This document shows positions 28,201 through 34,200 of a stretch of 64,000 bases of DNA, piece after piece. Source of the stretch: Escherichia coli (GTDB lineage Bacteria; Pseudomonadota; Gammaproteobacteria; Enterobacterales; Enterobacteriaceae); NCBI RefSeq assembly GCF_030013205.1, contig NZ_CP122648.1; one strand, given 5' to 3'. The position numbers were made by a program. How positions within the stretch are numbered: the stretch's first letter is position 1; each line of letters opens with the position of its first letter.

Positions 28201-31200
28201 GCAAGGCGCTGCGCCTGAGATTCACTCAACGTACCCAGCGTCATACACGCCTCCAGGCCCATCGCTTTTACCCCCTGCACCATCTGCTCCAGATAGGGCA
28301 TGTCGCGTTCGTGGGGATTCTTCCACGCCGCGCCCATACAGAAACGTGTCGATCCCGCCGCTTTCGCTTTTCGCGCCGACTCCAGCACCTGTTCAACTTC
28401 CATCAACCGCTCGGCTTCCAGCCCGGTTTTATAGCGCGAGCTTTGCGGGCAATATTTGCAATCTTCCGGACAAGCTCCGGTCTTAATTGACAGCAACGTG
28501 CTGACCTGCACCTGACGTGGATCGAAATGCTGACGATGCACCTGCTGCGCTTCAAACAGCAGATCCAGCAACGGTTTTTCAAATAATTCTGTGACTTGCG
28601 ACAATGTCCAGCGTGGGCGGTGAGCCATGGGGCTTCTCCAAAACGTGTTTTTTGTTGTTAATTCGGTGTAGACTCGTAAACCTAAATCTTTTCAATTTGG
28701 TTTACAAGTCGATTATGACAACGGACGATCTTGCCTTTGACCAACGCCATATCTGGCACCCCTACACATCCATGACCTCCCCGCTGCCGGTTTATCCGGT
28801 GGCGAGCGCCGAAGGTTGCGAGCTAATTTTGTCTGACGGCAGACGCCTGGTTGACGGTATGTCGTCCTGGTGGGCGGCGATCCACGGTTACAATCACCCG
28901 CAGCTTAATGCGGCGATGAAGTCGCAAATTGATGCCATGTCGCATGTGATGTTTGGCGGTATCACTCATGCGCCAGCCATTGAGCTGTGCCGCAAACTGG
29001 TGGCGATGACGCCGCAACCGCTGGAATGCGTTTTTCTCGCGGACTCCGGCTCCGTAGCGGTAGAAGTGGCGATGAAAATGGCGTTGCAGTACTGGCAGGC
29101 CAAAGGCGAAGCGCGCCAGCGTTTTCTGACCTTCCGCAATGGTTATCATGGCGATACCTTTGGCGCGATGTCGGTGTGCGATCCGGACAACTCAATGCAC
29201 AGCCTGTGGAAAGGCTATCTGCCAGAAAACTTGTTTGCTCCCGCCCCGCAAAGCCGCATGGATGGTGAATGGGATGAGCGCGATATGGTGGGCTTTGCCC
29301 GCCTGATGGCGGCGCATCGTCATGAAATCGCGGCGGTGATCATTGAACCGATTGTCCAGGGCGCAGGCGGGATGCGCATCTACCATCCGGAATGGTTAAA
29401 ACGAATCCGCAAAATGTGCGATCGCGAAGGTATCTTGCTGATTGCCGACGAGATCGCCACCGGATTTGGTCGTACTGGCAAACTGTTTGCCTGTGAACAT
29501 GCAGATATCGCGCCGGACATTTTGTGCCTCGGTAAAGCCTTAACCGGCGGTACAATGCCCCTTTCCGCCACACTCACCACGCGCGAGGTTGCGGAAACCA
29601 TCAGTAACGGCGAAGCCGGCTGCTTTATGCATGGGCCAACTTTTATGGGCAATCCGCTGGCCTGCGCAGCAGCAAACGCCAGCCTGGCGATTCTTGAATC
29701 TGGCGACTGGCAACATCAGGTGGCGGCTATTGAAGCGCAGCTACGCGAGCAACTTGCCCCCGCCTGTGACGCCGAAATGGTTGCCGATGTGCGCGTACTG
29801 GGGGCAATCGGTGTGGTCGAAACCACTCGTCCGGTGAATATGGCAGCGCTGCAAAAATTCTTTGTCGAACAGGGTGTCTGGATCCGGCCTTTTGGCAAAC
29901 TGATTTACCTGATGCCGCCCTATATTATTCTCCCGCAACAGTTGCAGCGTCTGACCGCAGCGGTTAATCGTGCGGTGCAGGATGAAACATTTTTTTGCCA
30001 ATAACGGGAAGTCAGCATGAGGGTTTCTGGCTACACTTTCTGCAAACTAGAAAGGAGGGTTCATGAAACTCATCAGTAATGATCTGCGCGATGGCGATAA
30101 GTTGCCGCATCGTCATGTCTTTAACGGCATGGGTTACGATGGCGATAATATTTCACCGCATCTGGCGTGGGATGATGTTCCTGCGGGAACGAAAAGTTTT
30201 GTTGTCACCTGCTTTGACCCGGACGCGCCAACCGGCTCCGGCTGGTGGCACTGGGTCGTTGTTAACTTACCCGCTGATACCCGCGTATTACCGCAAGGGT
30301 TTGGCTCTGGTCTGGTAGCAATGCCAGACGGCGTTTTGCAGACGCGTACCGACTTTGGTAAAGCCGGATACGGTGGCGCAGCGCCGCCGAAAGGCGAAAC
30401 CCATCGCTACATTTTTACCGTTCACGCGCTGGATGTAGAACGTATTGATGTCGATGAAGGTGCCAGCGGCGCGATGGTCGGGTTTAACGTCCATTTCCAC
30501 TCTCTGGCAAGCGCCTCGATTACTGCGATGTTTAGTTAATCACTCTGCCAGATGGCGCTATGCCATCTGGTATCACTTAAAGGTATTAAAAACAACTTTT
30601 TGTCTTTTTACCTTCCCGTTTCGCTCAAGTTAGTATAAAAAGGCTGAACAAGAAACAGAAAACACTGTAAATATCAATATGTTATGAAAGATTTAGTCTA
30701 AATAATAGACTGCATAATGCTACAAAACACAACATATCCAGTCACTATGAATCAACTACTTAGATGGTATTAGTGACCTGAGACAGAGCATTAGCGCAAG
30801 GTGATTTTTTGTCCTCTTGCGCTAATTTTTTGCCACACAACAGTCACATCTTCAAAAAATATGCAAAGCTTAGGGTTAATCGGCGGATGATTTTTGTCCA
30901 TTCATTTTGCGCGGGTAAGTTATGTGGTGGGTTATCGGCATCCTTTCCGTGGTTGTCATCGTGGCGACGCTTGTCGTTAGGTCACATCTGCAGGATATTG
31001 ATAATGACTATTAGCCATAAGTGGTTTCAACGCTTTGGGTAATGTAGTAGGCCACCCAGTTACCTGACTCATTAAATCTGTAAGCACAATTCAAACGAAT
31101 CGGACCGATATTATTGAATGTGCTGAGCGTTGTCCCACCAATACCATTTTTAACCAAAACTGTTGGGTTAGCAGATGATGACCCGGCTATCTTTATGTAA

Positions 31201-34200
31201 ACAATATCACCAACTACGGCAGACACTTTATCCAGCTCAATTGAATAGGTGAAGGCACCTGTACCAGCACTCATGATGATGTAGTACCTGGAGGGGTCAA
31301 GCCTTGGTTCTATTGTTAAAGTCCCAGCTGCTGCCACAGTGTGGTCGAGAAAGGTTCTCACCTGGAGGCTTGTATTTTGTGGAAACCTCACCCTTGCCCT
31401 GTTGAAAGCGGAATCCATCACTGCGTAAAGTGGGCGAACGTTGTTTCTGTAGGATCTAACCAGAACATCACTACCGTGGAAGTCGTTGCTTTGTGATCCA
31501 GAAAGTGAGTGAACTACCTCGACCTGGTTAATTGTCCCCTCTCCGACATAGCAGTCAGGGCTATTAACCACAAAATCGACGAACCTGATGTTTTGCGCAA
31601 AGTATGAGTTCAGGCGGAATGTGCTGTTTGTCGAGTTAACTACTGACTGAGCATTTGTGATTGAGTTGCCGACGATTGCGTGAATAGAGTTGATAGTCAC
31701 TTCCTGGCAGTCAACCAGAAGCACCGCATCGTAAACAAGGTCAGTGGCAAATCCATCACTTTTATAGACTTCAATGTTTCCGATTTGCAGGGATGGCCTG
31801 TTTCTGGCTCGTACTCCGTTTTGCTTAACGTTGACGTGTACGTTATCGATAAATCCACCAGGCTCGCTGGCTGGGTTGGTTAGGTCGATTCCAACAAATG
31901 CCCCAAGCCCTTCGCTGTCCTTGACAACAAACCCTTCAACGCCGTCACTCAGTTCGACAAACTTCCACCAGTTGTTTGTGTTGAATCTGATGTCTACACC
32001 TACGTTACCTCGAACGGACTTCATCTTAACGGCCACGCACTGGAATTGCGTACCTTCAACCTGCTGCACGTTATAGCTGCCGTATCCAGTGACATGCACT
32101 GAGCCGCTAAAAGCGTCGCCAATCAGCATGCCATTTACCCACGAATACTGTAGCACCGTCAGGTCATCACGCCCCTGTTGAGGACCGAAATGCGCTCCTA
32201 ATTTGAACTTCGCCCGGTGCGCAGTGAACATTTCCTCCCTGAGTGGAGTAAGAATACCGTACCGACCATTTCCGTTTTCCAGGCGAATCATGAATTTTCC
32301 GATGTCGGTTTCTACCTGGGAATAACTGGACTCCGGGTAGCTAACGGCCAGACCTACGGTCGATGCTGAGTCAGCATCCTTCACGCATAACTGGGTTTCT
32401 GTCCCAGCCGTATAAATTTTCACGCCATAGGGAACGGTTACGCACGCCGTTAGTGCGGAATCTCCTGTATGGTAGTTATCCATATCCAGAGAAACACCAT
32501 TTGTAGGGCTCACCAGATATTTTCCTGCTGGCCAATAGAGTACCTTAGCTCCGCAATTGGACCAGCGGTTTAGGGCAAGAGTGTCATCTGCAATACCATC
32601 TCCCTTTGCTCCGAAGTGGTAAGGGGTAAGGAGATAGGTGTTGTGCTGATGTTGAGTAATAGGTACAGAATCAGCATATGGCTGTTTAACAATAACAAGC
32701 GCATCTCCTAGGCCAGTGTCAGGGTTTAATAATTGCTGTCGCAACTGATCCGGGTCATACTTCAGCACATTAGGAAAATAGAACTGCTGCACACCGTATG
32801 CATCATAAACAGCCATCGAATGGCCTTGCACAGTTACGAACTTGGCAATCTGTCCGTTATATACCGGGTAACCAGCCGCATTAATGATGATTGGTTGCGA
32901 AACAGGAACATGAGAACCGTCTTCGTTCTCTATATAAACCTGAATCTGGTTTTCAGGATTTACAGGGTCAGTGTCAATTTTACCGATATAAATTTTGCCA
33001 TTGGCTACGGCTTTAAAAGAACGCGCCATAGTGAAAAGTTGCGAAGGCATCGATACGATCACATTGGCTGTAATGTCTGTCATTTAATTTGCTCCAGATA
33101 CAATGAATCGCCGCAGCGTGGCCACGGTGAATTTTGGGCATAAAAAAACCCAGCCGAAGCTGGGTCGTTGCGTTGGTTATCTGTCAGTAGTTATGTACTG
33201 AAGGAGGTAATTCTTTATTCTTAAGTCTCATCCATGCAGAAAGATTCGTTGGTCCGCCTGGCTCATTGATATCAACATCTCGTGTGTGGTTGATTAAAAC
33301 GTCTCTCGCCATTCCGATAACATACGAGAATTCATGACCGTAGTCGTAGCATCTGCCGGAATAGTTCGATTGAATTTGTTTTAGCGCCGGATACAGTTCG
33401 CGGAATAATGCCTGTGAGCGGTTGGCATAATCCCATAACCATACAAGGCTGTTTGCTTCTTTTGCAGAAAGCTCGTTGGTTTTCTTCTCTTGTTTGCCAA
33501 TGAACTCACCTTCAAGTGGAACTCGAGCTGCAAGTGATAGTGCTTCGGTAAACTGCTCCTCACTGATTTCTTTGTACGAACATCCAAAATGGGATTTCAG
33601 TGACGACCACATGGTGATCATCGCCTTAGCCTGTTTTTCTTTTGGCAGAGACTGACCGCGACTCATGACGAGTTGTTTAATGGCTTCCTGCTGTTCAGTG
33701 GTGATTTTACCCGGCAACGCCTTTTTAGCTTTGCGTGGGTTAACTACATGGCCTTTAGTCCAGTATTCGTAGAGCACATCGTCACACTCTTCCTGATACT
33801 GGATTACCTTGTCGCGGATTTCAGGGCGTACTTTGTTAGGGCTAATGGTTTGCAGCCAACCTGCAAGTTTGCGAAGTGCCAAACAAATAATCTCACGGCG
33901 CTGTTCATCACCTGAAAGCTGCATTGTGATTTTCACAATGGAGGTTTTAAACCGCTGCTTCATTTTCGTAAACTGTGAAGCCCAATCCATACCCATACCT
34001 TCAACGATAGGTTTCATTGGGGTGTACGGCTCACCGTTGTGATTGACGACATAAAGCTCTGCGCCGTGGAATGGCACGTTGATAGTAGATACTGCTGTTG
34101 CTATACTTTTCATGTCAGTTTTTCCTCAAAATTTACTGGCGATTTAAGCCCGAGCTACTCGCAATAGCTTGGGCTTTACTCATTCTGGACAAACAATTCC

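What the first reader, a model, noticed from the sequence alone, without database searches (positions are those of the whole stretch)
31011..33083. Tailspike with conserved P22-type adaptor domain and a divergent receptor-binding body
The first roughly 115 residues are almost identical to the P22 gp9 head-binding domain as I recall it, whereas the remaining roughly 575 residues diverge from P22. This is the modular exchange seen in HK620/Sf6/CUS-3 tailspikes, which are O-antigen or capsule-specific glycanases, so the body probably reports the host serotype specificity of the ancestral phage.
Basis: partly seen in the sequence, partly recalled or inferred. Interest (0 to 1): 0.45.

Follow-up and report, generated by a model that had tools for sequence, protein, structure and literature searches.

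The report
P22-type tailspike with swapped receptor module
This is an intact phage tailspike gene left in a broken P22-like prophage of pig-pathogenic E. coli O139; it joins a common virion-attachment domain to a rare, uncharacterised sugar-cutting beta-helix, which is an ordinary kind of phage module swapping.

Summary
The ORF is real: window 31011-33083 (-), 690 aa, intact. Residues 1-113 are a P22-type head-binding domain (Pfam PF09008, E 1e-66). Identity is 77% to P22 gp9 and 91% to Sf6 gp14, so "almost identical to P22" overstates it.

Modular exchange is directly shown. The same body (99% nt identity) sits on an epsilon15-type adaptor in a second prophage of the same genome. More distant relatives carry at least three further N-termini, one of them in a myovirus baseplate module.

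The body occurs in 20 of 5426 complete E. coli genomes. Seventeen of these are among the 19 genomes with O139 wzy, but they are largely clonal, and three carriers are not O139.

The host prophage (att-lambda, about 20 kb) is defective: it has no early region, lysis genes, gp4 or gp10. Glycanase activity and O139 specificity are inferred, not shown. This is a new member of a known kind, of low to moderate interest.

The parts
31011..33083 (-). Tailspike gene (P22 gene 9 homologue), 690 aa plus stop, intact
   Evidence: ORF list. It is 100% identical to the ETEC4079 CDS WP_282842953.1, annotated 'phage head-binding domain-containing protein'.
32745..33083 (-). Residues 1-113: head-binding (virion adaptor) domain
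   Evidence: PF09008 positions 1-113 of 113, E 1.1e-66. Identity 77% to P22 and 91% to Sf6.
32690..32732 (-). Residues about 118-131: module junction in the neck, just before the conserved GDALVxVKQP motif
   Evidence: Other E. coli P22-type tailspikes match query nt 1-354/391. The epsilon15-type copy matches from nt 394. Junction alignment.
31416..32636 (-). Residues about 150-556: right-handed parallel beta-helix (receptor-binding, putative depolymerase body) with the FGAKGDGxxDDT N-cap
31764..32117 (-). Residues 323-440: cluster of family-conserved polar residues on successive rungs (D323, Q346, E383, E391, H416, N418, R429, Y440), the putative substrate groove or active site
   Evidence: Column conservation in the 62-sequence alignment A1: E383 and H416 at 100%, the others at 81-93%.
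31014..31352 (-). Residues 578-690: conserved C-terminal nine-strand beta-sandwich domain
33147..33166 (-). Intrinsic-terminator-like hairpin plus T-run between ant and the tailspike start
   Evidence: 8-bp stem, 5 GC pairs, TTTTT tail.
33184..34113 (-). Antirepressor (ant) gene immediately upstream, part of the immI-type region. The arc-like gene is at 34180-34326 (-) and the mnt-like gene at 34431-34682 (+).
   Evidence: Annotation of the identical ETEC4079 stretch. tblastn to the CFSAN018748 ant gives 48% identity.
30630..30641 (+). att core copy (TTAGTATAAAAA) at the ybhB-side prophage end
   Evidence: Two exact copies in the window against 0.02 expected. ybhB and bioA lie just outside.
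50976..50987 (+). Second att core copy at the integrase and ybhC side. The prophage spans about 30630-50987 (20.3 kb).
   Evidence: Integrase at 49832-50902 (+) and ybhC at 51037-52320.
41778..41780 (-). Junction of a 2,078-bp deletion that removed the gp4 and gp10 genes (tail hub proteins) relative to an intact relative
   Evidence: blastn against the complete CFSAN018748 prophage. tblastn finds no gp4, gp10, holin, endolysin, Q-like antiterminator, repressor or replication genes in the window.

Best explanation
What it is. This is the structurally intact tailspike gene of a decayed P22-like (Lederbergvirus-type) prophage inserted at the lambda attachment site (ybhC|ybhB-bioA) of a pig O139 E. 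coli.

Domain layout:
- (i) Residues 1-113 form a P22/Sf6-type head-binding domain. In a complete virion this domain docks the trimer onto the tail hub.
- (ii) A short neck follows. Its conserved GDALVxVKQP stretch marks where modules are exchanged.
- (iii) Residues about 150-556 form a right-handed beta-helix with a conserved polar groove (invariant E383 and H416, plus E391, N418, R429, Y440).
- (iv) Residues 578-690 form a conserved beta-sandwich, probably a trimer-stabilising or accessory binding domain.

Inferred mechanism. As in P22, Sf6 and HK620, the beta-helix binds a long surface polysaccharide and cleaves it so that the phage can reach the outer membrane.
- The most likely substrate is the Rha4/GlcNAc/Glc/GalA O139 O-antigen. 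I put that at about 0.5.
- Hydrolase and lyase chemistry cannot be told apart here.

Origin of the body. It was acquired horizontally. The same module sits on an epsilon15-type adaptor in a second prophage of the same genome.

Present state. In this element the gene is a relic.
- The prophage lacks gp4, gp10, the lysis genes, the late promoter/antiterminator region and all early genes.
- A terminator separates the gene from ant.
- The element therefore cannot build or arm virions on its own.

Shown versus inferred.
- Shown: ORF, domains, fold prediction, module sharing, prophage defects, distribution.
- Inferred: trimer formation, enzymatic activity, substrate, lack of expression.
For: - ORF and HBD.
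- Position as the last gene after mnt/arc/ant in a P22-type virion module (terminase, portal, scaffold, P22-type capsid, Sf6-type needle knob, ejection proteins).
- A profile of the family hits beta-helix glycan enzymes and the Sf6 TSP. hhalign to Sf6 TSP gives probability 96%.
- Conserved E383/H416 cluster.
- Module sharing: the epsilon15-type 789-aa protein is 97% identical in the body. Its N-terminus is 77-84% identical to the TL-2011b, epsilon15 and phiV10 tailspikes. It is present in ETEC4079 itself and in 13 genomes overall.
- Further adaptors are PF18668 (P0002) and others. P0006 lies in an E217-like myovirus baseplate module.
- O139 host and association. O139 unit composition: PMC4906484.
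- Purifying selection between two copies: pN/pS 0.23, from 23 differences.
- Defective prophage. Terminator.
- The general principle that RBDs move between phage taxa while N-terminal anchors stay taxon-specific: PMC11522302.
Against: - No enzymatic or binding data exist. The catalytic region could not be aligned to any characterised enzyme. The hhalign match to Sf6 stops at residue 346, before the catalytic residues I recall as E366 and D399.
- The PF12708 match is below Pfam's cut-off.
- The conserved residues were not mapped onto the 3D model.
- Three of the five apparently independent insertions lie next to non-O139 O-antigen clusters. One of these is the only complete prophage with this tailspike (CFSAN018748).
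- Two O139-wzy genomes lack the body.
- The O139 association is confounded by clonality.
- Polarised changes in the window lineage are 3 synonymous and 4 non-synonymous, which is compatible with relaxed constraint.
Confidence: 0.8

Rival explanations
1. The body is a depolymerase, but its substrate is not the O139 O-antigen. It could be another O-type (for example that of CFSAN018748), colanic acid, an O-antigen or K-type capsule, or ECA. The O139 association would then just reflect inheritance within one pig clone.
For: The only complete prophage with this tailspike sits in a strain whose O cluster is not O139. PEC41 is O132 and EC5654 has a wecB/GT4/wbuC-ending cluster. Most O139 carriers share identical flanking proteins, so they are clonal.
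Against: Two unrelated podophage lineages in the O139:H1 clone both carry this body. CFSAN018748 has the same chromosomal background as the O139 clone, with identical GalF, RfbB, RfbD and HisC/D/G proteins and only the O cluster replaced. Lysogeny may therefore predate an O-antigen switch. The PEC41 copy is in a gutted remnant. The PHROG label 'colanic acid degradation' rests only on residues 1-229.
Confidence: 0.3
2. The beta-helix works by beta-elimination (a lyase, or epimerase-like chemistry) at the GalA residue rather than as an Asp/Glu glycoside hydrolase like P22, Sf6 and HK620.
Confidence: 0.3
3. The gene is not a passive relic. It is kept because it is used in trans, either assembled onto virions of a co-resident P22-like phage or serving as a donor or recipient of the receptor module for the co-resident epsilon15-like prophage. 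Alternatively it benefits the host.
For: The ORF is intact in 14 of 17 P22-type copies, although both the att-lambda prophage (window) and the PEC41 sbcB|dacD remnant are gutted. pN/pS is 0.23. Ten genomes carry both adaptor versions, 99.2% identical in the body.
Against: The late promoter and antiterminator region is absent, and a terminator precedes the gene. Three copies are frameshifted, and truncated or fused derivatives exist (P0003, P0007). Divergence is so low that intactness may simply reflect recent decay. No expression data exist.
Confidence: 0.12
4. The body only binds its receptor and has no enzymatic activity.
For: No catalytic residues could be aligned to a known enzyme. Non-enzymatic beta-helix adhesins such as PfbA are among the structural matches.
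Against: An invariant Glu/His plus a conserved Glu/Asn/Arg/Tyr cluster persists across homologues of 20-40% identity. Most matches are depolymerases. From my general knowledge, the characterised P22-type tailspikes are enzymes.
Confidence: 0.08

Closest known systems
Shigella phage Sf6 tailspike gp14 (endorhamnosidase; PDB 7sg7, 2vbk)
   Same: The head-binding domain is 91% identical. The neck and the first third of the beta-helix are remotely homologous (phmmer to residue 249; hhalign probability 96% over Sf6 152-346). The gene position in a P22-like genome is the same, and the co-resident tail needle has an Sf6-type knob.
   Different: The rest of the beta-helix, including the region of Sf6's catalytic residues, and the C-terminal domain are not alignable. 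The host O-antigen is different.
P22 gp9, HK620 gp9 and CUS-3 tailspikes (P22-like phages with exchanged bodies)
Epsilon15/phiV10/TL-2011b (Uetakevirus) tailspikes
   Same: A 789-aa prophage protein in the same E. coli genomes has this exact body (97% aa) behind a Uetakevirus N-terminal anchor that is 77-84% identical to these phages.
   Different: The window protein uses the P22-type anchor. The bodies of epsilon15, phiV10 and TL-2011b themselves do not match.
Pectate-lyase-fold polysaccharide enzymes (AlgE4 A-module 2pyg, K5 lyase 2x3h, phi29 gp12, Klebsiella and Acinetobacter phage depolymerases)
   Same: Same right-handed beta-helix fold with the FGAKGDGxxDDT-type N-cap.
   Different: Only 9-15% identity. 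No shared catalytic signature could be established. These enzymes act on unrelated substrates.

Membership tests
P22-type (Lederbergvirus) tailspike, gene 9 family | N-terminal head-binding domain (Pfam PF09008) | tested here: met
   222.6 bits against a cut-off of 24, covering 1-113 of 113. Identity 77% to P22 and 91% to Sf6.
P22-type (Lederbergvirus) tailspike, gene 9 family | Last gene of the virion module, after the immI region (mnt, arc, ant), in a P22-like genome | tested here: met
   Gene order in the identical ETEC4079 stretch and in the complete CFSAN018748 prophage. P22-type capsid, portal and terminase are present in the window.
P22-type (Lederbergvirus) tailspike, gene 9 family | Central right-handed parallel beta-helix receptor-binding domain | tested here: met
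P22-type (Lederbergvirus) tailspike, gene 9 family | Tail-hub partners gp4 and gp10 encoded by the same element | tested here: not met
   Both genes are deleted in the window prophage. They are present in the CFSAN018748 prophage that carries the same tailspike. This reflects decay of the element, not a property of the protein.
P22-type (Lederbergvirus) tailspike, gene 9 family | Homotrimer with endoglycosidase activity on the host O-antigen | not testable with these tools
   Only a monomer was predicted, and no biochemistry is available.
Sf6 gp14-type endorhamnosidase body | Alignable catalytic region (E366/D399 of Sf6, recalled from memory of the Sf6 TSP literature) | tested here: not met
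   The hhalign alignment ends at Sf6 residue 346. phmmer gives only a weak second stretch.
Pectate-lyase-like beta-helix superfamily (PF12708 N-cap type) | PF12708 match at or above the gathering score | tested here: inconclusive
   The window protein scores 23.2 bits against a cut-off of 27. Family members P0012 and P0013 score 48 and 40.6 bits. The family profile hits GH55, AlgE and Sf6 N-caps at E 1e-12 to 1e-19.
Mannuronan C5-epimerase/AlgE-type enzymes | Catalytic YG(F/I)DPH(D/E) motif (recalled from memory) | tested here: inconclusive

The most novel reading that the evidence does not exclude
The body and its C-terminal domain may define an uncharacterised depolymerase family. Its invariant Glu383/His416 centre would work differently from the Asp/Glu hydrolases of P22, Sf6 and HK620, for example as an O139-specific lyase cutting at GalA. 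The conserved C-terminal beta-sandwich is not in Pfam and also occurs as the tip of short standalone fibre-like proteins, one of them fused to an Mtd_N domain. It may therefore be an unrecognised, widely shared tail-fibre module. In addition, the O139:H1 clone may keep the module in two prophages as a shared, exchangeable receptor-binding cassette.
Probability: 0.2. Interest if true: 0.5.

Novelty: new member of a known kind. Interest (0 to 1): 0.3.

Why it matters
Receptor-binding modules of temperate phages are the main record of which surface glycans phages have targeted in a bacterial lineage. This module is absent from all sequenced phage isolates searched and from solved structures. It is concentrated in the pig edema-disease O139:H1 clone.

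If it proves to be an O139-specific depolymerase, it could be used to detect or type O139, or to strip its O-antigen. It could also be used to retarget P22-like or epsilon15-like phages.

The locus is also a clean natural example of one receptor module carried on two unrelated virion anchors within a single genome. Conceptually, though, it fits the established picture of tailspike modularity and answers no open question.

Tried and rejected
- Literature searches for the strain names (ETEC4079 and others, CFSAN018748, PEC41, EC5654) found nothing useful.
- The original O139 structure paper (PubMed 9660194) is not held. Only the sugar composition was obtained, second-hand.
- A search for an E. 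coli O139 tailspike in the literature found none.
- The PHROG name 'colanic acid degradation' was rejected as evidence because the match covers only residues 1-229, which is the HBD plus N-cap.
- hhalign against the Sf6 tailspike did not reach the catalytic region, so catalytic residues could not be transferred.
- Model coordinates are not exposed to scripts, so the conserved residues could not be placed in 3D.
- The O-type of CFSAN018748 could not be named. Its wzy-like gene occurs in 13 genomes without serotype labels. EC5654 was typed only as non-O139.
- Genome walks in the wrong direction gave nothing relevant.
- PADLOC and Pfam scans of small neighbouring ORFs found nothing.
- Plus-strand ORFs inside the gene (67-136 aa) were treated as chance ORFs.
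Full report
**Observation**

The window carries an uninterrupted 690-codon ORF at 31011-33083 on the minus strand. Residues 1-113 match Pfam Head_binding (PF09008) over the whole model, with 222.6 bits and E 1.1e-66. They also match solved P22 gp9 N-terminal domains over residues 1/2/6-114, with E 1e-45 to 1e-50.

Counted directly, identity to P22 is 87/113 (77%) and to Sf6 gp14 103/113 (91%). HK620 and Sf101 are about 89%.

Past residue 114 no P22 chain aligns, and only Sf6 continues weakly, to residue 249. None of 50,697 phage records covers 80% or more of the protein.

**Genomic setting**

- The window is 100% identical in this gene to pig isolate ETEC4079 from Belgium.
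- The gene is the last one of a P22-like prophage lying between ybhC and ybhB-bioA. Two exact copies of TTAGTATAAAAA, at 30630 and 50976, bound it (0.02 expected by chance). From memory, this matches the lambda att core.
- The element is about 20.3 kb, roughly half the size of a related complete prophage.
- Compared with the complete 40-kb prophage of strain CFSAN018748, which carries the same tailspike at 98.9% identity, int and xis here abut an Rz fragment.
- There is no repressor, replication gene, Q-like antiterminator, holin or endolysin. A 2,078-bp deletion (junction at about 41778-41780) removed gp4 and gp10. The gp20/gp16 region is divergent or partial.
- A strong terminator-like hairpin (33166-33147) separates ant from the tailspike start.
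- From general P22 knowledge (not tested here), tailspikes attach to the gp4/gp10 hub, and gene 9 is read from the antiterminated late transcript. This element therefore cannot arm virions by itself.

**The body**

- Sequence relatives are rare. There are 15 hits in the 5.8-billion-cluster word-indexed search. A full HMMER scan of 1.84 billion representatives gives 317 hits at E<=1e-3 and 19 at E<=1e-30.
- A 62-sequence alignment (A1) gave an AlphaFold model of residues 115-690 with mean pLDDT 93.6 and pTM 0.90.
- BFVD returns only distant phage 'pectate lyase superfamily' or tail spike proteins, at 16% identity or less.
- The family profile hits the FGAKGDGxxDDT N-cap of GH55 glucanases, AlgE epimerases, the Sf6 TSP and phi29 gp12.
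- hhalign aligns the family to Sf6 TSP residues 152-346 with probability 96%, but not further.
- Across the family the conserved polar residues are E383 and H416 (100%), N418 and Y440 (93%), E391 (90%), Q346 (89%), R429 (87%) and D323 (81%). They sit in the motifs DGVEGF and [12 protein letters not shown], on successive rungs according to the DSSP string.
- I take this cluster as the substrate groove or active site. That is an inference, because the residues could not be placed in 3D.

**C-terminal domain**

- Residues 578-690 form a nine-strand beta-sandwich (separate model with pLDDT 86.8).
- The domain has no Pfam family. It also occurs in 130-230 aa standalone proteins, one of them fused to an Mtd_N domain.

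**Modular exchange**

- The 5' 354-391 nt (the HBD) occur at 80-95% identity in 1124 of 5426 complete E. coli genomes. The full gene occurs in only 20.
- Nt 394-2073 recur at 99.2% identity, with 13 differences, in a 789-aa protein. Its first about 220 residues are 77-84% identical to the tailspike N-termini of TL-2011b, epsilon15 and phiV10.
- That gene lies in an epsilon15-like prophage next to yfgI, followed by holins and a GH19 endolysin. It is present in 13 genomes, including ETEC4079 itself.
- Ten genomes carry both versions, seven only the P22-type, and three only the epsilon15-type.
- More distant relatives carry other N-termini. These include a PF18668 TSP1/gp66-type domain (P0002, 80% identity) and others (P0004 at 65%, P0006 at 43%). 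P0006 sits in the baseplate module of an E217-like contractile-tailed phage.
- This matches the published picture that C-terminal receptor-binding domains move between phage taxa while N-terminal anchors stay taxon-specific (PMC11522302).

**Serotype question**

- ETEC4079 has O139 wzy and wzx. O139 wzy occurs in 19 of 5426 genomes.
- Seventeen of the 20 body carriers are among those 19. A naive Fisher test gives p = 2e-44. That test is not valid as it stands, because most carriers are one pig O139:H1 lineage.
- Counting insertions instead gives five events:
  1. P22-like at att-lambda in the O139 clone.
  2. Epsilon15-like in the O139 clone.
  3. A complete P22-like prophage at sbcB|dacD in CFSAN018748. 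This strain has the same chromosomal background as the O139 clone, with identical GalF, RfbB, RfbD and His proteins, but a different O cluster.
  4. A gutted remnant at sbcB|dacD in the O132 strain PEC41.
  5. Epsilon15-like in the human isolate EC5654, which has a wecB/GT4/wbuC-ending cluster.
- Two O139-wzy genomes lack the body.
- The O139 repeat is a heptasaccharide of Glc:GlcNAc:Rha:GalA in the ratio 1:1:4:1 (PMC4906484; see also PMC7685785). Both an endorhamnosidase and a GalA-directed lyase are therefore chemically conceivable.
- I rate O139 O-antigen as substrate at about 0.5.

**State of the gene**

- The window copy is intact. The window and CFSAN018748 copies differ at 23 sites, with pN/pS 0.23.
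- Polarised with the epsilon15-type copy as outgroup, the window lineage has 3 synonymous and 4 non-synonymous changes: G257V, A523V, A565V and Y581H. These numbers are too small to decide between constraint and relaxation.
- Decay is visible elsewhere. EC556, EC571 and EC581 have a 1-nt deletion that splits the gene. P0003 is a C-terminally truncated epsilon15-type version, and P0007 is a fusion retaining only the last about 190 residues.

**Verdict**

This is a genuine P22-type tailspike whose receptor-binding beta-helix belongs to a rare, uncharacterised family with no sequenced phage isolate and no solved relative. Modular exchange is demonstrated, and the depolymerase-like fold is predicted with high confidence. 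Enzymatic activity and O139 specificity remain inferences. In this window the gene is a remnant of a defective prophage. It is a new member of a known kind, and I score interest at 0.3.

Noticed in passing
window 2002-6003: A low-GC (31-35%) island lies next to rhlE. It has a 670-aa ORF (2002-4014, minus strand) whose C-terminus matches the SopA-like HECT-type E3 ligase catalytic domain (PF13979, E 7.6e-14), so it looks like a type III effector. It also has a 431-aa ORF (4708-6003, plus strand) with no Pfam or PADLOC hit.
   Followed up: partly
outside the window: NZ_CP122643.1 1426322-1428691 (ETEC4079); L002 7311-9680 in ETEC1748: The window's own genome holds a second copy of the same receptor-binding body (99.2% nt identity) on an epsilon15-type N-terminal anchor, in a different prophage next to yfgI.
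   Followed up: yes
window 41778-41817: The 2,078-bp deletion that removed gp4 and gp10 leaves a 316-aa ORF (40867-41817). PGAP annotates it as a normal 'tail needle knob protein'. Its first about 13 codons come from upstream of the deleted block, and it keeps an Sf6-type knob (PF16532).
   Followed up: partly
window 36057-38321: A 754-aa ORF with no Pfam hit. Only a short stretch matches gp16 residues 49-188, at 67% identity. PGAP calls part of it a lytic-transglycosylase pseudogene, so it may be a chimeric or decayed ejection protein.
   Followed up: partly
window 34679-35820: Small immI-region ORFs of unknown function with no Pfam hit (where scanned) and no PADLOC hit. There is a 105-aa protein with a signal-peptide-like N-terminus (34679-34996, plus strand), a 74-aa hydrophobic protein (35217-35441, plus strand; PADLOC only) and a 121-aa protein (35455-35820, minus strand). 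They are possible superinfection-exclusion or moron genes.
   Followed up: partly
L006 12217-24174 compared with L004 14397-25978: CFSAN018748 shares identical GalF, RfbB, RfbD and HisC/D/G proteins with the O139 strain ETEC4079. It has a different O-antigen cluster from rfbA to gnd, which looks like an O-antigen switch by recombination. The switch lies about 18 kb from the complete prophage that carries this tailspike.
   Followed up: partly
L008 301-2372 (EC556); proteins P0003 and P0007: Decay products of the same gene exist elsewhere. Three Japanese O139 strains have a frameshifted copy. P0003 is a C-terminally truncated epsilon15-type version (a cluster of 244 member sequences). P0007 is a 550-aa fusion keeping only the last about 190 residues.
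   Followed up: partly
proteins P0067, P0080, P0081, P0090, P0091, P0096, P0101, P0126, P0139, P0141: The C-terminal beta-sandwich (motif AGxGAYTYNIDLD...SSxNPTV...NGxGG...W) also occurs in short standalone proteins of 130-275 aa. P0139 combines it with an Mtd_N domain. The domain is not in Pfam.
   Followed up: partly
L015 10001-12163: A 43%-identical homologue of the body (P0006) is encoded inside the baseplate module of an E217-like contractile-tailed phage contig. The module therefore also serves myovirus-type virions.
   Followed up: partly
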